Part shown: positions 1-7,489 of the stretch, piece by piece
How positions within the stretch are numbered: position 1 is the stretch's first letter
Layout: each line of letters starts with the position of its first letter
NCBI RefSeq assembly: GCF_003334765.1
Contig: NZ_QOWT01000022.1
Length of the DNA stretch: 64,000 nt
Source of the DNA: Escherichia coli
Lineage (GTDB): Bacteria > Pseudomonadota > Gammaproteobacteria > Enterobacterales > Enterobacteriaceae
Reading direction: 5' to 3' (one strand)
Notes under the pieces: model-generated
What the model was told of the DNA's origin: nothing
The model's database searches: none
The model's input: only the letters and a program-made list of their open reading frames with translations
Position numbers and translations under genes: made by a program

Positions 1-555
1 GCCGCCTTTCAGGACGCCAGTATGCTGATGCGCATCAACCACAATCCCGTTAGAGCTCATCGCTCCACCGCCCTGGGTAACGCCACCATTGATCACCACT
101 TCGCTGTTAATACGCGTGCGGTCAGCCTCCAGCATAAACTCACTGGTTTTCAGGGTGATATTGTCAGCGGCCTCAATGACCATTGATTTGATGCCCCTGA
201 CATACCAGCGCCCGGTGGCGGGTTCGTATTCAAACCAGCCGCCGTCAGGATGTTCTGTCACGCAGGCGTCCGCCGACGTCGAAGGTGGCGCGAACTGATT
301 CGAATAGATGGCGGGTAACGCAAAGGCGGTTTCCAGATTGCCGCCCAGACTCAGCAGCACCACCTGCTCACCTTCCGATGGTCGCCACCATGTGCGGGCA
401 TTACCCGCGCGCAGCGTCAGCCAGTTAATCCAGTTGGTTTCAAGGTCGCCCGTTTTCACCCGACAAAGCCAGTTTTCCCGGTCCACTTCGGTGACTACAC
501 CTATGCGGATCAGATTGGTGATAAGGCGCATGATTTCGGTTAGTTGTGCGTTCAT
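1..555 (-). CDS. Phage baseplate assembly protein V (gpV-like), N-terminal ~185 codons; 3' end lies beyond the window start
   Basis: Reverse-strand translation from ATG at 555-553 reads MNAQLTEIMRLITNLIRIGVVTEVDRENWLCRVKTGDLETNWINWLTLRAGNARTWWRPSEGEQVV..., typical of P2 gpV; absent from the ORF track because it has no stop in the window. Confidence 0.8.
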   Translation of the reverse strand, partial: MNAQLTEIMRLITNLIRIGVVTEVDRENWLCRVKTGDLETNWINWLTLRAGNARTWWRPSEGEQVVLLSLGGNLETAFALPAIYSNQFAPPSTSADACVTEHPDGGWFEYEPATGRWYVRGIKSMVIEAADNITLKTSEFMLEADRTRINSEVVINGGVTQGGGAMSSNGIVVDAHQHTGVLKGG

Positions 556-658
556 AGATATATGATGACAGCTGAAAACTTGTTTATAACTTCTTGCAAA
601 TTGTGGTATCGATGGTACAAATTGATAAAAGGATAAAAAACAACCAATAGGTGGATAA

Positions 659-1465
659 ATGAGTGTTATGAATCCAATAAGTTCTAATATATTTAATGCT
701 GAATTTTTAAACACCCCGGCAGCGGCACTTGCCGCATGGATTTCCATTATTGGAGCTGTTATAACTTTGGTGACGATAGTTATAAGAGCACTATTCAAAT
801 ATAGAAAATCTCATGATGTAATTTTGAAAAAATCAGGAATACCTGCGTTTATATTGAATTTTTTTCTTATACGAATATCATTAAAAAGGCTGCCTACTAT
901 CACATGGGCTGAAAAATCAATCACGGTTCTCTTTTCACTTCTTTTTTTGTGTGCAATTTATATTTTTGGTCCAGTTTTCATCCAAGCCATTAGAACCCCA
1001 CCAAATAGCACATTGCTTTATTGGATAAAATCCGGTGAATCATTTTATATGTCAAAAAAACTGGCGACTGCAGCTACAATATTAACCACTCCTGATTGGG
1101 AAATATCAAAGGATGATTGCGAAGAGTCATCCTCTGCCAGTACAGAGAAGTACAAATCATTAACTATCGAACATAAAGAAATTCTTTGTAAACTACTAAC
1201 CACTGATGAAGGGAATGCTTACATTGATGAAGAAGTCAAGAATTTCGTTAAAGACAAATTCTTTATCTATTCCTTTGCCCCAACAACCATATTTATTCTA
1301 TTATGGATTTCTTTGGGTTTTATACTGACCATTCACTATTCTAAAAAAGTTAGGAAATATATTCTGACTGAACAAAAAAATGCAATTCATTGGGCATATG
1401 GTGAATTCAAGACAGAAGGAATCTATTCAATATATCAAGAGTTAGAACGTAAGACTCACCATTAA
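659..1465 (+). CDS. Hypothetical polytopic membrane protein (268 aa), AT-rich cargo gene between S and V
   Basis: ORF with GGTGG Shine-Dalgarno 6 nt upstream; several hydrophobic helices; AT-rich; opposite strand to flanking tail genes. Confidence 0.5.
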   Translation: MSVMNPISSNIFNAEFLNTPAAALAAWISIIGAVITLVTIVIRALFKYRKSHDVILKKSGIPAFILNFFLIRISLKRLPTITWAEKSITVLFSLLFLCAIYIFGPVFIQAIRTPPNSTLLYWIKSGESFYMSKKLATAATILTTPDWEISKDDCEESSSASTEKYKSLTIEHKEILCKLLTTDEGNAYIDEEVKNFVKDKFFIYSFAPTTIFILLWISLGFILTIHYSKKVRKYILTEQKNAIHWAYGEFKTEGIYSIYQELERKTHH

Positions 1466-1853
1466 GACCCAACAAACGACGCTCTGCGTAACGCACTTCC
1501 GGTCCTTTGCGGCTGACGCGATCGCGCAGGCCATAATGGTGAACGCGGGCAATGCGCTGCACCTTACCTTCAAACTGCACGCTGGCAGAATCGGCGCTGG
1601 CGGCAGTTTTCAGGTATTTGGTGGTGCGCAGCTTTGCAAACATCTGACGTTTGATGCGGCCTTTTTTACTGCGCGCCGTGACCTTGCGCGGTTCATAACT
1701 GCTGCCATCTGGATTGCGCTGCATCCTGATATTCTGCTGCTGTGTCCGGCGCAGTTCCTGCGCCAGCTGGCGCATCATGCGGCTTCTTGCGACTGGTTCC
1801 AGATTCGCCAGTAAGGCACTAAGCCAGTCGTCCACCTTCTGCAGTTCAGCCAC
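1407..1853 (-). CDS. Phage tail completion / virion morphogenesis protein (gpS-like)
   Basis: 148-aa ORF with the sequence character of the phage virion morphogenesis family; lies between R-like and V as in P2. Confidence 0.7.
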   Translation of the reverse strand: MAELQKVDDWLSALLANLEPVARSRMMRQLAQELRRTQQQNIRMQRNPDGSSYEPRKVTARSKKGRIKRQMFAKLRTTKYLKTAASADSASVQFEGKVQRIARVHHYGLRDRVSRKGPEVRYAERRLLGLNGESYVLTLDILNRFLLS

Positions 1854-2304
1854 GTTTCACCGTCCACATTTCTTCAGGTTCATCGGGTTCTGCTACCGCT
1901 TCAACGCTCGACACACTGCCGTCAGTGCTGACCAGCACACGTTCCGTCAGTTGCAGGTTAAGGCTGATATCACAGACATCGTTGCGCAGAATATCCACCT
2001 CAAAGGTAAATAGTTTTTCCCGTAACGCCGGGTTATTGATGGCATCGGGCTGGTTATCCCGCAGCCACAGCAAAACCGGGGCCATCAGCAGATTCTGGTC
2101 GCCGCTGAAATCCTCAATCACCACGTTCAGGGTGTAACCACGCAGCCCTACGAGTTCACTAAAGGCAGTATCTTTCACCTGATGGAGCCGGACCTGAACC
2201 AGGAAATTTACGGCCTGCCGGAATATCTGTCCGCCATTCCGTCCGCCTTGCTGAACGAGTCCGCTACGCTGTTCCGGCGTAAATACTACATCAATGGCAG
2301 TCAT
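1846..2304 (-). CDS. Phage tail completion protein R-like; N-terminal portion probably not native (antisense to portal-derived sequence)
   Basis: 152-aa ORF; its stop overlaps the S start by 8 nt; its first ~40 codons overlap the portal fragment on the other strand. Confidence 0.5.
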   Translation of the reverse strand: MTAIDVVFTPEQRSGLVQQGGRNGGQIFRQAVNFLVQVRLHQVKDTAFSELVGLRGYTLNVVIEDFSGDQNLLMAPVLLWLRDNQPDAINNPALREKLFTFEVDILRNDVCDISLNLQLTERVLVSTDGSVSSVEAVAEPDEPEEMWTVKRG

Positions 2305-2712
2305 GCAGGGTTCATCATGTATATGACCGACGCCGCGCAGAACCAGGAGGACGTGAACAACATCCGCCAGGCCATGAAAAGCGCTAAAGGACCGGGCAAC
2401 TTCCGCAACCTGTTTATGTATTCACCCAACGGCAAAAAGGACGGGATTCAGATAATCCCGCTGTCAGAGGTAGCGGCAAAGGATGAGTTTCTGAACATTA
2501 AGAACGTGAGCCGAGACGACATGATGGCTGCACACCGCGTTCCGCCGCAGATGATGGGGATTATGCCGAGTAATGTTGGGGGATTTGGGGATGTGGAAAA
2601 GGCGAGTAAGGTGTTTGTCCGTAACGAATTGATACCGCTGCAAAAGCGAATTAAAGAAATTAATGAATGGTTGAGTGATGAAATAATTTCTTTCCAACCA
2701 TATGAATTATAA
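2182..2712 (+). pseudogene. Phage portal protein (gpQ-like) C-terminal fragment; 5' boundary uncertain
   Basis: Translation contains RRKYYINGSHAGF and MMAAHRVPPQMMGIMPSNVGGFGDVEKASKVFVRNELIPLQ, which I recognise as portal C-terminal sequence; far too short for a complete portal. Confidence 0.6.
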
Positions 2713-2733: not shown

Positions 2734-3591
2734 CTACTTTAACCAAATATTATAATCCAATCTTCCTACGTATCTTGAAAAAACAGCCAGAGCAATTGCT
2801 TGCCCTACACTTGTTAATTCAATTCCTTGATAGTTGCTCTTTGAAAATTTTTCTAAAAATGCAGACACATGAGGGGCAACTAACTTAAGATTTGAAATAT
2901 ATGCACTCTTATCTTTTATATCAGTCGGATATTTACTCATAAAATAGTCTTCAACATCCATCCCTAAAAAAGTATTCCATGAACAAGCCCCTGCATATTG
3001 AATGTGATATATCTGGGCTTGAGACAAATTAAACCCATTAGTATACATTGATTCAAAGTTTCTAAAATTGTGCTCCAACAAATCCAATCGAACACCATTA
3101 ACAGGGTCTTTGATCTCAACATTCTTGAGAAGAAAAACTATCGTTATAAGTGATATTTGTTGCTGTGTTAACTTGGGAACGACGGTAACTGCCTCCGTTA
3201 AAACTATATCTCTAAAATCGTCATTGTTATTGGAGACTCGTTCAACTAACAACTGAGAAAGCACATCCATATTAGCTTTCTTTCCCTTCCTGGCTGATGA
3301 CTTTAATGCCTCAGTCAATGTAGCCTGAACGTCCGGATCGCAAAATTTATCAATAATCAATCTATCAACGTTTTTTGTTAAATCCGAAACGACACGCTCT
3401 TCAAAATCTTTTGCATTCTCTTGAGCTGCAGCATAAGCAACATCTTTCAATTTTGGAAACTGATTTTCGAAGAGAATGTTGAATAGTTCTCTAACCTCGG
3501 AAAACGACATCCCTGAAACATTTACATTATTTCCAGCTTGAATTGCATACGAATTATTACCTATTTGTTGCTTTTGCTTATCACTAAACAT
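2734..3591 (-). CDS. Hypothetical protein (285 aa), AT-rich cargo; second gene of a two-gene module
   Basis: Start is preceded by GGAGGA directly after the stop of the upstream small membrane protein gene; no family recognised. Confidence 0.6.
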   Translation of the reverse strand: MFSDKQKQQIGNNSYAIQAGNNVNVSGMSFSEVRELFNILFENQFPKLKDVAYAAAQENAKDFEERVVSDLTKNVDRLIIDKFCDPDVQATLTEALKSSARKGKKANMDVLSQLLVERVSNNNDDFRDIVLTEAVTVVPKLTQQQISLITIVFLLKNVEIKDPVNGVRLDLLEHNFRNFESMYTNGFNLSQAQIYHIQYAGACSWNTFLGMDVEDYFMSKYPTDIKDKSAYISNLKLVAPHVSAFLEKFSKSNYQGIELTSVGQAIALAVFSRYVGRLDYNIWLK

Positions 3592-3600
3592 ATATCCTCC

Positions 3601-3846
3601 TTATTTTTTATCACCTGTATTTATACAATCAATTTTAATATCACCTCTAGCCTGGACAGCAGTTGAATTATCACCAACTGATTGGCTCATAGAATTATAT
3701 TTATTTTTTGTAGTGATAAGTAATCCAGCTAAAGCGCTAACTGCAGCCAAAAATGCAACAATAGAATCAAAACCAGGATCCATATAAAGCCATAATCCTG
3801 CAATCGATGCCAGCATACATGTAATGACTATTGCAAAAATTTTCAT
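3601..3846 (-). CDS. Small membrane protein (81 aa, two predicted TM helices); first gene of the two-gene cargo module
   Basis: ORF with AGGAG upstream; hydrophobic N-terminal two-thirds, polar C-terminal tail. Confidence 0.55.
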   Translation of the reverse strand: MKIFAIVITCMLASIAGLWLYMDPGFDSIVAFLAAVSALAGLLITTKNKYNSMSQSVGDNSTAVQARGDIKIDCINTGDKK

Positions 3847-3914
3847 AAATTCTCCTTCTAATGGAAGTGGTTATACCGAAAACAATTTCCTTTTACAACC
3901 ACGCACAGCGCGCG

Positions 3915-3940
3915 CTCGTATCCCCGCCACGCCTGCCCGC
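3915..3940 (-). other. Candidate cohesive-end (cos)-like sequence of the P2/186 type
   Basis: Minus strand reads GGCAGGCGTGGCGGGGATA; the GGCGTGGCGGGGA core matches the 186/P2 cos overhang as I recall it, and it sits in a GC-rich island between AT-rich cargo. Confidence 0.3.
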
Positions 3941-3983
3941 TTTGTGTAGTGGTTTTCATGCACCTGCATGACATAAGTAAAAG

Positions 3984-4001
3984 CCCGCCAGAACTGGCGG
4001 G
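3984..4001 (-). terminator. Hairpin plus T-run on the minus strand (possible relic phage terminator beside cos)
   Basis: cccgcca-gaac-tggcggg stem-loop followed on the minus strand by CTTTTACTT. Confidence 0.35.
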
Positions 4002-4151
4002 ACTGAGCAAAAACGATCCTTTTGCGATCATTCATTTTCATGCGCTATAGTCATGCAACAAACGCATACGAACCATATGGTTAGATTACTCATCAAGTCA
4101 GATGGATTTTCAGGCAGATTGCCACAGCAATTGTAAAGGAGCGAGATTGAA

Positions 4152-5153
4152 ATGGGTGGAGAGACTTCGGCTATACAACGAGTCGCGGGTAAGATTTCTG
4201 ATGATATTTTCTCAGTGTTCAAATGGGATCGTGCCGCTAGAGCGGACATGAATTGGGATTGTTGCCAAGAGGCTCATTCCAAGAAAACACATCCAAGCGA
4301 TGTTGTATTTTTCTACATAGATCCATATGAGGAGGAAATGGTCTATCTCAACACAGACCTCAAAAGCTATGCAGAAGGTACTATTGGGAAAAAAATAGTC
4401 GAGGGAGCTTTAACATCGCTTGCTTTAGCTACCGAGTGTGCAAATGTCAGTGAAGAATGGCGATTGAAATATGTTCATGATGATTCTTTAGGTTATAACG
4501 TAAGAGGGTTATTATTCTTATATAACCATGATAATTTATATGATAAAGACTTCTATGAGAATATTACAAAAAAATTAGATCACTCATCTATAAATTGCCC
4601 TCCAAACATCAAACTACATTTGCTTGACCCTTATAAAATATCAGATTTGATAAACATATCTTCTGACATAACTAAGTTAATTGGTTCAGGCAAACTTCCT
4701 CAACCTGATAAGTTCACATATTATTATCCAGATCTTTCCCTAACAAGAATAAAGCACCCTATTAATCAGACAACACCTGCAACAATTGAATTATTAACAT
4801 CACCATACATTATAATAAAGCATGAGGCTTTCAGTTGGCTCAGGGATAAAAACCCTGAGGGATATGTTGTTTATTACAATCAACCGGGGGATTCAGTAGA
4901 CGAATTCGTTTACTTCTTTGATATGTTATCAACTTATCAGATATTAACCGAAGGTAAACCAATCGTATTACGCCATTGTCACATTCACCCAAATGAAAAT
5001 GCCATTCATCATTTTGAAAGAGCGAAAAAGAAATACAGCACAGACTGGCTCTTAGGCGAGGATGAAAGACTTTTTCTTAAAATTGACTTCGACAAGACAG
5101 ACAAAATTGTTGTTGAATATAATCTTGAACAAATCGGCATGGAGCAACGATAA
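4152..5153 (+). CDS. Hypothetical protein (333 aa), gene 1 of a three-gene cargo cassette; possible PD-(D/E)xK-like motif
   Basis: AGGAG upstream; AT-rich; FFYIDPYEEEMVYLNTDLK resembles a hhhD...(D/E)xK nuclease core; no Walker A. Confidence 0.7.
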   Translation: MGGETSAIQRVAGKISDDIFSVFKWDRAARADMNWDCCQEAHSKKTHPSDVVFFYIDPYEEEMVYLNTDLKSYAEGTIGKKIVEGALTSLALATECANVSEEWRLKYVHDDSLGYNVRGLLFLYNHDNLYDKDFYENITKKLDHSSINCPPNIKLHLLDPYKISDLINISSDITKLIGSGKLPQPDKFTYYYPDLSLTRIKHPINQTTPATIELLTSPYIIIKHEAFSWLRDKNPEGYVVYYNQPGDSVDEFVYFFDMLSTYQILTEGKPIVLRHCHIHPNENAIHHFERAKKKYSTDWLLGEDERLFLKIDFDKTDKIVVEYNLEQIGMEQR

Positions 5154-6232
5154 TGGCTAAAAAACTATATTTCGCAACTGATAAAAATATTTATGATGCA
5201 TTACATCATAAAAGGATAACCGCTGCAAAGTTGCATGAATTATTGTTGAATCGAGGTGTGTTTTTATCACCAGAACTCGACAAGGAAATACTAATCGAGG
5301 AAATATCCAAACTTCCTCACGGATTTAATGAATTAGAACACATAAAAAAACTGGTCAAAACATATGACCCAAGGGAAAGCACTACTAGTGTGAGCTTCCA
5401 AACCTCAACAAATCAGGCCGAATTAAAAAGTGCTGCTGAAGCACTAAAAAAAACATGCTCCCCTAGTAAAGGTCAAAGCCTGAATATTGTAGCTAAAAAA
5501 GATGGCTCGCTTACAGTAGAATACAAATATGAAGAAATAGACCTGTCTAAAACTGCATTACGTCAGATCGACAAGCGGAATGTTATAATAGAACTTCGCC
5601 CTGGAGCTGACAAAGTTGAAGTACGTATGCCTCAAAACCCCGAGGCAAAAAAAGTTATTGAGAGCTTGCAAAACGAGCTATCTAAAATCAAGTCCGAACC
5701 TATCGAGCGCTTCGAAATATCATTACTAGCAATAACTGATCCTACATTGCGAAGTCAGTTTTTTCAGGAATTAATGAATGGTCTACGCGGTTATGAGACT
5801 GATGACGTAACAAAAGTCGAATTAAATCGCAGTACTGATGCTAGTGAGGATGAAGACAAGGAAGAAACTATTGATACCGGATTTGTTAAGAAAGCCGTCC
5901 TTAATGGTGAAGGGGTAAATAGTTCAGCTATATTTTCTCAACTACATGAGAAAGGTTATTATATCGGGCGTATTGCATGGTCTTCAAAGCCGACAAGTGG
6001 AATTGGAGACAGAATCAACGTCGAAGCATTTTTCAAAGACTCAGAAAAATGCTGTGACTTTGCCTATCAAATTAAAGGTATAAACAATCAAAAAGAAGAC
6101 GGTTTCAATGTAACCATTCGCGCGGCAACGGCACAAGAGAAAAAACATATTAGTGAATTAATTGAGTCCGCCGCTGAAAATGCCTATAATATAATAATAG
6201 GATCAGAGGTGAACGAAGATGAAAAAGGTTAA
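5153..6232 (+). CDS. Hypothetical protein (359 aa), gene 2 of the three-gene cassette
   Basis: ATG overlaps the gene 1 stop (TAATG at 5151-5155); GGAG 8 nt upstream; acidic patch SEDEDKEE; no recognisable family. Confidence 0.7.
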   Translation: MAKKLYFATDKNIYDALHHKRITAAKLHELLLNRGVFLSPELDKEILIEEISKLPHGFNELEHIKKLVKTYDPRESTTSVSFQTSTNQAELKSAAEALKKTCSPSKGQSLNIVAKKDGSLTVEYKYEEIDLSKTALRQIDKRNVIIELRPGADKVEVRMPQNPEAKKVIESLQNELSKIKSEPIERFEISLLAITDPTLRSQFFQELMNGLRGYETDDVTKVELNRSTDASEDEDKEETIDTGFVKKAVLNGEGVNSSAIFSQLHEKGYYIGRIAWSSKPTSGIGDRINVEAFFKDSEKCCDFAYQIKGINNQKEDGFNVTIRAATAQEKKHISELIESAAENAYNIIIGSEVNEDEKG

Positions 6233-6902
6233 ATGGCTTAAGTTAAACATACGGCTTGAGTTTGAAACAGCCGTTAGACGTCTTTCTCTTGATTCTTTTA
6301 CAGAGGATAAAGGGAAAGGGTTCATTTTTGATAAAATACGCCATGATTTTGCAAATGGTCGCTTTGTCGAGCGTATTGTTTATCATGATAAAATATTAAG
6401 CTTTGACGGAAGCGAAACTACCGTTGAAAGAATCGAATATCGCACCACAAATTTTAGCGTGGCTTTAGACTCTCTTCCTGTAATGCAGATTACTAACCCA
6501 CCCAGAACTTTAAAGCCTTTTTCGCAGGCTTTGGTAAAAAATCTTGGCTTAGGTGTTAGTTTGGAAGAAATTGACATAAACCCTATAGACTGGCTTAATG
6601 AAATATCTTCAAGTGTAAATATCAATTTAACACAACTTGATATTTCAAGGGTTAGAGTTTCTGATTACGCCACAGCTAAAATGCAAATAATTGGCAGCAA
6701 TGATCTTAGGAAGTATTATAAAGAAGAATTAGAGGGTAAAAAAATAAGAATTGACAGGCTTGTTTGCTCTGTTAATTCATTAGAATATTCCGGTAAGCTC
6801 AAGATCACCAATAGCGGCCTTGCTTATATTGATGTTAGAAATGAGAATGAGTTTACGAAAATCGTTTTTGATACGTTAAAAAAAGTCACCCTTCAATCAT
6901 AG
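6219..6902 (+). CDS. Hypothetical protein (227 aa), gene 3 of the three-gene cassette
   Basis: Start lies 14 nt inside the end of gene 2 (translational coupling); GAGGTG upstream; no recognisable family. Confidence 0.65.
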   Translation: MKKVKWLKLNIRLEFETAVRRLSLDSFTEDKGKGFIFDKIRHDFANGRFVERIVYHDKILSFDGSETTVERIEYRTTNFSVALDSLPVMQITNPPRTLKPFSQALVKNLGLGVSLEEIDINPIDWLNEISSSVNINLTQLDISRVRVSDYATAKMQIIGSNDLRKYYKEELEGKKIRIDRLVCSVNSLEYSGKLKITNSGLAYIDVRNENEFTKIVFDTLKKVTLQS

Positions 6903-6958: not shown

Positions 6959-6989
6959 GTAGGCGTCAGAATCAAGTTCTGACGCCTAC
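6959..6989. terminator. Perfect 13-bp inverted repeat hairpin between the cassette and the convergent DinI-like gene
   Basis: gtaggcgtcagaa-tcaag-ttctgacgcctac; no strong T-run on either side, so function as a terminator is uncertain. Confidence 0.35.
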
Positions 6990-6997
6990 AATGTTTC

Positions 6998-7231
6998 TTA
7001 ATGCAGCCAGCTATCGTCCTCCCAGACCTGCTGCATTATTTCCATCACTCGCTTTTTGTCTTCATCCAGTTTTAACCCGCTCAGCTCAACGCCATTGGCG
7101 CTGCCCTTACGGATACGAATTGCTGTTTTGGGATACAGAGGGCGCAAATTACGGTAAAGCTCGGATTCAAGGGCGTCCAGGGTAGACTGGCTAATCTTCT
7201 GCTCTTTATCGATCATTATTTCAATGCGCAT
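6998..7231 (-). CDS. DinI-like protein (77 aa from the MRIEIM start), resembling the C-terminal part of a 186 Tum-type module
   Basis: MRIEIMIDKEQKISQSTLDALESELYRNLRPLYPKTAIRI...VWEDDSWLH resembles DinI; the track ORF (7303 start) is probably over-extended. Confidence 0.6.
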   Translation of the reverse strand: MRIEIMIDKEQKISQSTLDALESELYRNLRPLYPKTAIRIRKGSANGVELSGLKLDEDKKRVMEIMQQVWEDDSWLH

Positions 7232-7241
7232 AAAAGCCACC

Positions 7242-7430
7242 TCAGCTGATGACATCCATTGAGCGGTTGTATTCGTGGGTTCTGATTTTTGCCATGAGTT
7301 CATCTGTCAGTTCAGAAACCCACTGCAGAGCCAGCCCCTTCTCTTCATCACTACACTCACTAGCCGCTACAAGCTTAAGAAAAAAATCAATGCGCTGGAG
7401 CTTCAAAGACTCCAAAAAATAGTCCTGCAT
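7242..7430 (-). CDS. Small protein (62 aa), first gene after the LexA-controlled promoter; possible Tum-like antirepressor part
   Basis: AGGAGG 4 nt upstream of the ATG; directly downstream of the LexA box; different frame and overlapping the DinI-like ORF. Confidence 0.4.
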   Translation of the reverse strand: MQDYFLESLKLQRIDFFLKLVAASECSDEEKGLALQWVSELTDELMAKIRTHEYNRSMDVIS

Positions 7431-7471: not shown

Positions 7472-7489
7472 ACTGTTTGTATTTACAGT
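7472..7489 (-). promoter_or_regulatory. LexA operator (SOS box) overlapping the -10 of a strong promoter for the Tum/DinI-like genes
   Basis: aCTGT-ttgtattt-ACAGta, a perfect CTGT-N8-ACAG; on the minus strand TTTACA (-35) and TATACT (-10) flank it. Confidence 0.7.

What the first reader, a model, noticed from the sequence alone, without database searches (positions are those of the whole stretch)
4152..6902. Three-gene, translationally coupled cassette of unknown function in the cos-proximal variable locus of a 186-like prophage: candidate undescribed anti-phage system
Three co-directional ORFs (333, 359 and 227 aa) are packed with a 1-nt overlap (TAATG at 5151-5155) and a 14-nt overlap (6219-6232), each with its own Shine-Dalgarno. 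They lie on the opposite strand to the flanking phage backbone genes and are visibly AT-rich against a GC-balanced backbone. None has a Walker A motif, methyltransferase motifs, or any family I can name. The cassette sits between a cos-like sequence and the LexA-controlled Tum/DinI-like module, which corresponds to the tin/old position of P2, a known hotspot for defence cargo.
Basis: partly seen in the sequence, partly recalled or inferred. Interest (0 to 1): 0.85.

Follow-up and report, generated by a model that had tools for sequence, protein, structure and literature searches.

The report
Known 3HP anti-phage system in prophage
The three-gene cassette is real, but it is the already published and validated "3HP" anti-phage defence system of P2-like prophages, so it is not new; my analysis adds only a testable idea of how it works (a DNA-cutting enzyme paired with two DNA-ring-like proteins).

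Summary
There are three co-directional, overlapping, AT-rich ORFs at 4152-6902, lying between a P2-type cos site and a LexA-box/DinI module, in the gpA-gpQ hotspot of a 186/P2-like prophage.

The interpretation "undescribed" is wrong. All three proteins are 100% identical to the "hp + hp + hp" system (plasmid pFR109, E. coli E1114) that Rousset et al. 2022 cloned from this hotspot and showed to protect against phage P1. It is catalogued as 3HP / Rst_3HP, and the PADLOC models Hp1, Hp2 and Hp3 match full-length (E 1e-157 to 1e-248).

No published mechanism was found in the held library. My inference is as follows:
- **Hp1** is a PD-(D/E)xK nuclease of the GAPS4a type, with E4, H47-P-x-D50 and D69-L-K71 near-invariant.
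- **Hp2** is a remote GapS4b relative, with a helical N-domain and an RdgC-fold core.
- **Hp3** is a basic, stand-alone RdgC-fold protein.

The trio is essentially inseparable: 75 of 80 viral loci carry all three, and four of the five exceptions are cut by contig ends. The likely mechanism is a DNA-sensing RdgC-fold module that licenses a DNase, by analogy with GAPS4, which is triggered by DNA breaks and is abortive.

Novelty: already known. Interest: low.

The parts
3905..3975 (.). P2-family cos-like packaging site that bounds the hotspot
   Evidence: The sequence resembles the P2 cos in Rousset's clones. This ~150-bp stretch alone matches about 1,250 E. coli genomes at 82-88% identity.
4022..4051 (+). 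Candidate sigma-70 promoter of the cassette (TTGCGA-18-TATAGT)
   Evidence: Consensus scan, 9 of 12 matches. It lies in the 3917-4125 stretch that is identical to the pFR109 clone. That clone included the native upstream region.
4152..5153 (+). hp1: 333-aa predicted PD-(D/E)xK nuclease (PADLOC Hp1; Pfam PDDEXK_GAPS4), the likely effector
   Evidence: - 100% identical to pFR109 protein 1.
- PADLOC Hp1, E 1e-239.
- Precomputed PF26115 on the identical protein P0001.
- E4, H47, D50, D69 and K71 are invariant or near-invariant in 150 representatives clustered at 50% identity.
- Relatives hit NCBIfam GapS4a at 36-46 bits.
5153..6232 (+). hp2: 359-aa GapS4b-like protein with an N-terminal helical domain (about residues 10-68) and an RdgC-fold core
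   Evidence: - 100% identical to pFR109 protein 2.
- PADLOC Hp2, E 3e-248.
- NCBIfam GapS4b E 2e-5 over residues 14-314.
- PF26110 GAPS4b_N on homologues.
- AF2 model pLDDT 85.7.
6219..6902 (+). hp3: 227-aa basic (pI 9.0) stand-alone RdgC-fold protein
   Evidence: - 100% identical to pFR109 protein 3.
- PADLOC Hp3, E 2e-157.
- AF2 model pLDDT 92.6.
- pI.
6959..6989 (.). 14-bp-stem hairpin terminator between the convergent hp3 and DinI-like genes
   Evidence: Terminator scan and the sequence itself. The 3' primer of pFR109 maps to 6990-7009.

Best explanation
**Shown.** The cassette is the 3HP (Rst_3HP) anti-phage defence system. It is carried as accessory cargo in the cos-proximal gpA-gpQ hotspot of a defective 186/P2-like prophage. 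Its three proteins are identical to the ones experimentally shown to protect E. coli against phage P1.

**Inferred mechanism.**
- Hp1 is the effector. It is a PD-(D/E)xK DNase of the GAPS4a type, with catalytic residues E4, D50, D69 and K71.
- Hp2 is a remote GapS4b relative. Its N-terminal helical domain probably docks Hp1, and its RdgC-fold core probably forms a DNA-encircling ring or horseshoe.
- Hp3 is a second, basic, RdgC-fold protein. It either pairs with Hp2 (as Chl4/CENP-N pairs with Iml3/CENP-L) or forms its own ring.
- Together Hp2 and Hp3 sense abnormal DNA made during infection, such as free ends, breaks or recombination/replication intermediates. An example is the linear, terminally redundant P1 genome before it circularises.
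- Sensing then unleashes Hp1 on DNA. By analogy with GAPS4 this probably kills the infected cell.
- The translational coupling of the three genes fits a stoichiometric complex.

**Confidence by part.** I put about 0.98 on the identity with 3HP. I put about 0.7 on 'nuclease effector plus DNA-binding RdgC-fold partners'. I put about 0.4 on the specific DNA-end/break trigger and abortive outcome.
For: **Identity with 3HP**
- The proteins are 100% identical to pFR109 proteins 1-3, and the upstream region is identical from 3917.
- The paper states that the three-gene system protects against P1.
- PADLOC Hp1/2/3 match full-length.

**Nuclease (Hp1)**
- PF26115 PDDEXK_GAPS4 is recorded on the identical protein.
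- The motif E4...H47-P-x-D50...D69-L-K71 is conserved in 149-150 of 150 representatives; E4 is in 137, the other 13 having a gap there.
- Three of 14 family members tested hit NCBIfam GapS4a at E 5e-9 to 5e-12, one over nearly the full model.

**Hp2**
- GapS4b hits come from three family members, at E 1e-4 to 2.5e-9.
- PF26110 GAPS4b_N is recorded on homologues.

**Hp3**
- Its pI is 9.0.

**Co-inheritance**
- 75 of 80 IMG/VR loci have the trio in the same order. Four of the five exceptions are cut by contig ends, and the fifth has an ORF of the right size in the right place.
- The trio also occurs in Pseudoalteromonas, Delftia, Ralstonia and metagenomic contigs.

**Literature on the relatives**
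- GAPS4 is an a2b2 complex in which GAPS4b forms a ring and GAPS4a docks on its helical domain. It is a DNase triggered by DNA breaks and causes cell death.
- RdgC, RexA and Iml3-Chl4 are non-specific DNA binders that form rings or horseshoes as homo- or heterodimers.
Against: - The GAPS4 link is remote. Window Hp1 gives no NCBIfam GapS4a hit at all, Hp2 scores 23.5 bits against a cutoff of 300, and most family members tested give no hit.
- The local Pfam library did not contain or hit PF26115 or PF26110, so those assignments rest on precomputed annotations.
- I could not model Hp1, or any complex.
- Hp2 and Hp3 show no sequence-level homology to each other (hhalign probability 0.1), so a heterodimer is conjecture.
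- 3HP protected only against P1 in an eight-phage panel, whereas GAPS4 is broad. The trigger may therefore differ.
- No experiment in the held library addresses nuclease activity, complex formation, DNA binding or the need for Hp3.
Confidence: 0.7

Rival explanations
1. The parts are the same, but the system acts as a direct, non-suicidal restriction-like nuclease. The Hp2/Hp3 clamp loads on the free ends of incoming linear phage DNA, and Hp1 degrades only that DNA. The host chromosome is spared.
For: - The activity is narrow (P1 only), which fits a phage whose linear DNA must recombine to circularise (plus general knowledge of P1).
- RdgC-type rings thread or encircle DNA.
- GAPS4 also degrades incoming lambda DNA.
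Against: GAPS4, the closest characterised relative, degrades host DNA too and lowers viability at high MOI. There are no data on 3HP itself.
Confidence: 0.2
2. Toxin-antitoxin-like logic. Hp1 is a toxic nuclease held inactive by Hp2 and/or Hp3. Infection releases it through shut-off or degradation of the inhibitor, not through DNA sensing.
For: - The genes are tightly coupled.
- The nuclease is acidic and one partner is basic.
- Many defence nucleases work this way (general knowledge).
Against: - Hp2 and Hp3 have a DNA-binding ring fold, not a typical antitoxin fold.
- GAPS4a alone is not reported as toxic, and both GAPS4 subunits are required for defence rather than one neutralising the other.
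Confidence: 0.08
3. The cassette mainly serves prophage biology, and P1 exclusion is a side effect. RdgC inhibits RecA and RexA biases the lambda switch, so Hp2 and Hp3 might modulate RecA/SOS or prophage induction next to the LexA-controlled tum/DinI module.
For: - Both proteins have the RdgC fold.
- RexA and RdgC have the roles described.
- The cassette is adjacent to the LexA box and the DinI-like gene.
Against: - The cassette occurs in either orientation in the hotspot and also outside P2-like phages, for example in Pseudoalteromonas next to Abi_2 and in an L010 contig next to a BsuBI/PstI-type restriction enzyme gene.
- It always includes a conserved nuclease.
- It gives defence when cloned alone on a plasmid.
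Confidence: 0.04
4. One reading: a previously undescribed anti-phage system.
For: RefSeq still annotates all three proteins as 'hypothetical protein'.
Against: - The proteins are identical to the validated pFR109 system of Rousset et al. 2022.
- PADLOC has Hp1/2/3 models.
- Rst_3HP appears in DefenseFinder-based surveys.
Confidence: 0.01

Closest known systems
3HP / Rst_3HP ('hp + hp + hp', pFR109; Rousset et al. 2022, Cell Host Microbe, PMC9122126)
   Same: Everything matches. The three protein sequences are identical, the hotspot between gpA and gpQ next to cos is the same, and the upstream promoter region is identical from 3917. The published phenotype is protection against P1.
   Different: - The flanking cargo on the portal side of cos differs from strain E1114. 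The first 190 nt of the clone do not match the window.
- The host prophage here is a deletion derivative.
GAPS4 (GAPS4a + GAPS4b; Mahata et al., bioRxiv 10.1101/2023.03.28.534373 and 10.1101/2025.09.07.674715)
   Same: - An N-terminal PD-(D/E)xK nuclease subunit of about 330 aa (Pfam PDDEXK_GAPS4) is followed by a partner of about 360 aa with a GAPS4b_N helical domain and a ring-forming body.
- The genes are coupled.
- It is an anti-phage system on mobile elements.
- GAPS4 therefore offers a mechanistic template: an a2b2 complex and a DNase triggered by DNA breaks.
   Different: - 3HP has an obligatory third gene (Hp3).
- NCBIfam GapS4a/GapS4b scores are 0-46 bits against cutoffs of 270 and 300.
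- The motif is HPxD...DLK rather than HGxD...SxK.
- Only P1 is known to be affected, against a broad range for GAPS4.
- Neither GAPS4 paper mentions 3HP.
E. coli RdgC (PDB 2OWL) and the RdgC/RexA/Iml3-Chl4 (CENP-L/CENP-N) fold
   Different: - There is no detectable sequence similarity.
- RdgC is a housekeeping regulator of recombination.
P2 old and tin (the classical cargo of this locus)
   Same: They occupy the same cos-proximal position between gene A and the portal gene, and they have the same biological role, excluding other phages.
   Different: The proteins are unrelated: Old is an ATPase-TOPRIM nuclease, and Tin acts against T-even phages.

Membership tests
3HP / Rst_3HP defence system | Three proteins, each matching the Hp1, Hp2 and Hp3 profile models | tested here: met
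   PADLOC PDLC03004/5/6 all match full-length, at E 1e-239, 3e-248 and 2e-157.
3HP / Rst_3HP defence system | Genes adjacent, co-directional and in the order hp1-hp2-hp3 | tested here: met
   Coordinates 4152-5153, 5153-6232 and 6219-6902, all on +. The same order is found in 75 of 80 viral loci.
3HP / Rst_3HP defence system | Sequence identity to the experimentally validated system (pFR109, E. coli E1114) | tested here: met
   There are 0 mismatches in 333, 359 and 227 residues.
3HP / Rst_3HP defence system | Anti-phage phenotype (protection against P1) | not testable with these tools
   Reported for the identical proteins in PMC9122126, section 7. It was not re-tested here.
GAPS4 (GapS4a/GapS4b) | GapS4a NCBIfam NF047933 at or above the curated cutoff of 270 bits | tested here: not met
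   Window Hp1 gives no hit even at E <= 10. Relatives reach only 36-46 bits.
GAPS4 (GapS4a/GapS4b) | GapS4b NCBIfam NF047934 at or above the curated cutoff of 300 bits | tested here: not met
   Window Hp2 scores 23.5 bits, E 2e-5, aligned over residues 14-314. Relatives score 21-36 bits.
GAPS4 (GapS4a/GapS4b) | Pfam domains PDDEXK_GAPS4 (PF26115) and GAPS4b_N (PF26110) | tested here: met
   - Precomputed PF26115 is on P0001 (identical to Hp1) and on all 120 listed homologues.
- PF26110 is on P0121 (99% identical to Hp2) and on about 10 of 43 homologues.
- The local Pfam copy does not reproduce these hits.
GAPS4 (GapS4a/GapS4b) | N-terminal non-canonical PD-(D/E)xK motif HGxD-SxK with an essential Asp | tested here: inconclusive
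   Hp1 has H47-P-S-D50 ... D69-L-K71, which is the canonical DxK rather than SxK. It is invariant across the family and sits at a similar position to that described. No direct alignment to GAPS4a was possible.
GAPS4 (GapS4a/GapS4b) | Two-gene system, with a and b sufficient for defence | tested here: not met
   A third conserved gene is always present. Whether Hp3 is required was not tested.
GAPS4 (GapS4a/GapS4b) | a2b2 heterotetramer; DNase triggered by DNA breaks; cell death | not testable with these tools
   Known for GAPS4 only.
RdgC-fold DNA-binding proteins (RdgC/RexA/Iml3/Chl4) | Three-dimensional fold | tested here: met
RdgC-fold DNA-binding proteins (RdgC/RexA/Iml3/Chl4) | Sequence membership of the RdgC family | tested here: not met
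   There are no Pfam or NCBIfam RdgC hits and no PDB sequence relatives.
RdgC-fold DNA-binding proteins (RdgC/RexA/Iml3/Chl4) | Ring or horseshoe dimer that binds DNA non-specifically | not testable with these tools
   No multimer modelling or biochemistry was available. The basic pI of Hp3, 9.0, is only suggestive.
P2-like cos-proximal defence hotspot cargo | Located between replication gene A and portal gene Q, next to cos | tested here: met
   - In the window, gpA is at 7582-9996(-), cos at about 3905-3975 and the portal remnant at 2182-2712.
- 44 of 80 viral loci have both gpA and the portal within 6 kb of the trio.

The most novel reading that the evidence does not exclude
3HP is a three-subunit offshoot of the GAPS4 superfamily. 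In it, two different RdgC-fold proteins form a heterodimeric DNA clamp analogous to Chl4/Iml3 (CENP-N/CENP-L). Hp2 carries the nuclease-docking domain and Hp3 is the bare, basic partner. The clamp recognises DNA ends or recombination intermediates and gates a PD-(D/E)xK nuclease.

I found no paper in the held library that links 3HP to GAPS4 or to RdgC. A 2024 survey still lists Rst_3HP as unclassifiable by domain.
Probability: 0.35. Interest if true: 0.45.

Novelty: already known. Interest (0 to 1): 0.2.

Why it matters
As a discovery it does not matter. The system was found, cloned and validated in 2022 and is in both major defence-system catalogues.

Two things have residual value. First, the blind first-stage read correctly picked out a real defence system from raw sequence. 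Second, 3HP has had no mechanism or domain assignment, and the analysis here gives one that can be tested directly:
- a GAPS4-type nuclease with named catalytic residues (E4, D50, D69, K71);
- two RdgC-fold, probably DNA-encircling partners.

This would tie 3HP, GAPS4 and RexA together under one theme: an RdgC-fold DNA sensor coupled to an effector.

Tried and rejected
- **Local Pfam-A scans** of all three proteins gave nothing significant. The library evidently predates PF26115 and PF26110.
- **NCBIfam on window Hp1 and Hp3** gave nothing even at E 10.
- **hhalign of the Hp3 profile against the Hp2 profile**, to test paralogy, found no sequence homology (probability 0.1). The 'duplicated gene' idea stays structural only.
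- **HMM searches of the three alignments against all PDB sequences** found no relatives. No solved structure of 3HP or of a close GAPS4 relative exists in that copy.
- **Obtaining a bona fide GAPS4a/b sequence** for a direct profile-profile comparison failed. The GAPS4 papers give accessions only. Only the best 150 hits of the representative search are returned, and all are Hp1-type. A tblastn of the most GapS4a-like relative against plasmids returned only 'hypothetical protein' features.
- **Literature searches for a 3HP mechanism** found only survey papers.
- **Considered and rejected:**
  - A phage structural or replication function: no such homology, and PHROGs lists all three as unknown.
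  - A methyltransferase or ATPase system: no motifs.
  - Chance ORFs: conserved across classes of bacteria.
Full report
**1. The observation**

The window holds three + strand ORFs at 4152-5153 (333 aa), 5153-6232 (359 aa) and 6219-6902 (227 aa).
- The first junction is TAATG at 5151-5155.
- The third gene starts 14 nt before the second ends.
- Each start is preceded by a purine-rich Shine-Dalgarno sequence.
- The cassette is 36.4% GC, against 52.8% for replication gene A next door.
- A 14-bp-stem hairpin at 6959-6989 separates it from the convergent DinI-like gene.
- Upstream lies a P2-family cos-like sequence at about 3905-3975 (compare the P2 cos).
- Downstream on the other strand lie a DinI-family gene, a 62-aa ORF preceded by a perfect LexA box at 7473-7488, the replication endonuclease gene A and a Dam methylase.
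- No Walker A or DPPY-type methyltransferase motifs are present, and the local Pfam scan finds nothing.

The description is accurate in every respect.

**2. What it is**

- PADLOC-DB gives full-length matches of the three proteins to the models Hp1, Hp2 and Hp3, at E 1e-239, 3e-248 and 2e-157. These are the components of the '3HP' system.
- Rousset et al. 2022 (PMC9122126) defined the region between gpA and gpQ, next to cos, as a hotspot of anti-phage systems in P2-like phages. [quoted passage not shown]
- Their Table S2A lists it as pFR109, 'hp + hp + hp', from E. coli E1114.
- The three window proteins are identical to those three sequences, residue for residue. The clone's 3' primer maps to window 6990-7009. 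The clone's upstream part is identical to the window from 3917 onward, which covers cos and the promoter region.
- The system appears as Rst_3HP in DefenseFinder-based surveys.

The finding is therefore a known, experimentally validated defence system.

**3. Distribution and linkage**

- The whole cassette occurs in 17 of 5,426 complete E. coli genomes, one of them (strain H3) at 100% identity. It also occurs at 96% identity in Klebsiella prophages such as ST437-OXA245phi4.1.
- The Hp1 family has 557 representative clusters at E <= 0.001 in a 1.84-billion-protein library.
- In IMG/VR, 80 loci encode an Hp1 relative at 31-100% identity. Of these, 75 carry Hp1-Hp2-Hp3 in the same order and strand. 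Four of the five exceptions are cut by the end of the contig. The fifth (L069) has an ORF of the right size in the right place that the HMM does not reach.
- The trio also occurs in Pseudoalteromonas (next to an Abi_2 gene), Delftia (next to an integrase), Ralstonia (where the third gene starts at TTG and was under-called) and other contigs.
- 44 of the 80 viral loci have both a P2-type gpA and a portal gene within 6 kb. These include very diverged P2-like phages, and the cassette occurs there in either orientation.
- The three genes do not occur separately, so they behave as one mobile unit.

**4. What the proteins are**

*Hp1.*
- The identical protein and all 120 listed homologues carry a precomputed hit to Pfam PF26115, named PDDEXK_GAPS4.
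- Across 150 representatives clustered at 50% identity, H47, D50, D69 and K71 are conserved in 149-150. E4 is conserved in 137, the other 13 having a gap there. C96 is conserved in all 150, and N125-H-D127 is nearly as conserved, in 142-149.
- The order E...D...D-x-K is the classical PD-(D/E)xK signature.
- Three of 14 family members tested hit NCBIfam GapS4a at E 5e-9 to 5e-12, one across almost the whole model. All are far below the 270-bit cutoff, and the window protein itself gives no hit.

*Hp2.*
- It hits NCBIfam GapS4b weakly but over nearly its full length: 23.5 bits, E 2e-5, residues 14-314. Two relatives do likewise.
- Some homologues carry PF26110, GAPS4b_N.
- Its AlphaFold2 model (pLDDT 85.7) has a helical N-domain (about residues 10-68) followed by an alpha/beta body.

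*Hp3.*
- It has no sequence family outside the 3HP-specific PADLOC and PHROGs models. Its model is very confident (pLDDT 92.6).
- Hp3 is basic (pI 9.0), while Hp1 and Hp2 are acidic.
- Hp2 and Hp3 show no sequence-level relationship to each other.
- Foldseek finds hundreds of uncharacterised bacterial proteins of about 225 aa with the Hp3 fold.
- None of the three has a solved relative detectable by sequence.

**5. How it most likely works**

The closest characterised relative is GAPS4.
- It is a two-gene system whose GAPS4a is a PD-(D/E)xK DNase.
- Its GAPS4b dimer is predicted to form a ring, with GAPS4a docked on its helical domains.
- It forms an a2b2 complex, is triggered by DNA breaks (nalidixic acid, a T6SS DNase), degrades phage and host DNA, and lowers viability at high MOI.

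RdgC is a ring-shaped dimer that binds DNA non-specifically through its pore. RexA, the sensor of the lambda Rex exclusion system, shares the fold. Iml3 and Chl4 share it too and act as a heterodimer on DNA.

Putting these together:
- Hp1 is the DNase effector.
- Hp2 is the scaffold. Its N-domain holds Hp1, and its RdgC-fold body contacts DNA.
- Hp3 is a second RdgC-fold DNA-binding subunit. It either pairs with Hp2 or forms its own ring.
- The trigger would be an abnormal DNA structure made during infection. The P1-only phenotype fits a phage that enters as linear, terminally redundant DNA and must recombine to circularise. That last point rests on my general knowledge, not on a test.

What is shown and what is inferred:
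- Shown: identity with 3HP, the published phenotype, the motif conservation, the folds and the linkage.
- Inferred: nuclease activity, complex architecture, DNA sensing and an abortive outcome.

**6. Comparison with what is known, and membership**

- The cassette is a member of 3HP. All testable criteria are met.
- It works like GAPS4 and shares its two Pfam domains, but it is not a member of the NCBIfam GapS4a/GapS4b subfamilies. The scores are an order of magnitude below the cutoffs, there is an extra obligatory gene, and the motif variant differs.
- Hp2 and Hp3 are members of the RdgC fold class, but not of the RdgC sequence family.
- Neither GAPS4 paper mentions 3HP. [quoted passage not shown] I found no mechanistic paper.

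**7. Verdict**

Novelty: already known. Interest: 0.2.

The most novel reading still open is that 3HP is a three-subunit GAPS4 offshoot with a heterodimeric RdgC-fold clamp. I give it probability about 0.35. It would be moderately interesting to people working on defence-system mechanisms.

**8. Context noticed on the way**

The prophage in the window is defective. Relative to E. coli H3 it lacks 5,065 bp, from inside the portal gene to inside tail gene R, with an 8-bp microhomology at the junction (window 2131-2138). H3 itself already lacks part of gpM through the lysis genes. The defence cassette is nonetheless intact.

Noticed in passing
window 2131-2712 (junction at 2131-2138): The prophage is a deletion derivative. 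Relative to E. coli H3 it lacks 5,065 bp, comprising the N-terminal two-thirds of the portal gene, terminase ATPase, scaffold, capsid, the gpM remnant, the lysC remnant and the 5' end of the R-like tail gene. The junction has an 8-bp microhomology. Only the C-terminal 176 codons of the portal gene remain (2182-2712). IMG/VR contig L017 shows the same 531-bp portal remnant. H3 itself is already degraded, with gpM truncated and L through lysB missing.
   Followed up: yes
window 2734-3846 (- strand): A second AT-rich (34% GC) cargo pair lies on the portal side of cos. It consists of a 285-aa LPO_1073/Vpar_1526 family protein (NCBIfam NF045477, E 3e-72; PHROG 19542, unknown function; weak T4 Cef-like stretch) and an 81-aa protein with hydrophobic segments (not checked with a transmembrane predictor). 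There are no PADLOC hits. It sits inside the same gpA-gpQ hotspot, so it is a candidate accessory or defence module of unknown function. The E1114 clone has a different neighbour at this position.
   Followed up: partly
window 659-1465 (+ strand): An AT-rich (33% GC) 268-aa protein with hydrophobic segments (not checked with a transmembrane predictor) is annotated DUF6216 in RefSeq. It is inserted on the opposite strand between the virion-morphogenesis (S-like) and baseplate V genes. By my recollection this is the position of the P2 orf30 moron. It has no PADLOC, PHROGs or NCBIfam hit.
   Followed up: no
window 7473-7488, with ORFs 7242-7430(-) and 6998-7232(-): A perfect LexA box (CTGTTTGTATTTACAG) sits upstream of a 62-aa ORF and a DinI-family gene. 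This supports a 186-type, SOS-controlled Tum-like module. A second CTGT-N8-ACAG match at 7123-7138 lies inside the DinI-like gene and is probably chance (2 matches found, 0.5 expected).
   Followed up: partly
L047, L055, L077, L083 and others (IMG/VR loci): Diverged versions of the same trio (33-40% Hp1 identity) sit in the gpA-portal hotspot of diverged P2-like phages, in either orientation relative to gpA and the portal gene. This implies repeated independent insertion or inversion of the cassette in the hotspot.
   Followed up: partly
L078 7086-8447 and relatives; window Hp2 residues about 227-240: In diverged lineages Hp2 grows to 410-453 aa through an acidic, serine/aspartate-rich low-complexity insert, which gives spurious hits to MSCRAMM SD-repeat adhesins. 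The insert sits at the position of the short acidic, low-confidence loop of window Hp2.
   Followed up: no
Foldseek hits of the Hp3 model (AFDB50): The Hp3 fold is common among uncharacterised bacterial proteins of about 225 aa, with 380 hits at E <= 0.001. A few are annotated RdgC, DUF4747 or TIGR04255. This may be a large, unrecognised family of small RdgC-fold proteins, some of them possibly defence-associated.
   Followed up: no
NZ_CP148400.1 and NZ_CP148585.1 (55-kb E. coli records labelled as plasmids, from single-cell samples): These records match window 1-2138 at 100% identity and also contain an Hp1-family gene. The same P2-like element may therefore exist, or have been assembled, as an extrachromosomal record.
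   Followed up: no
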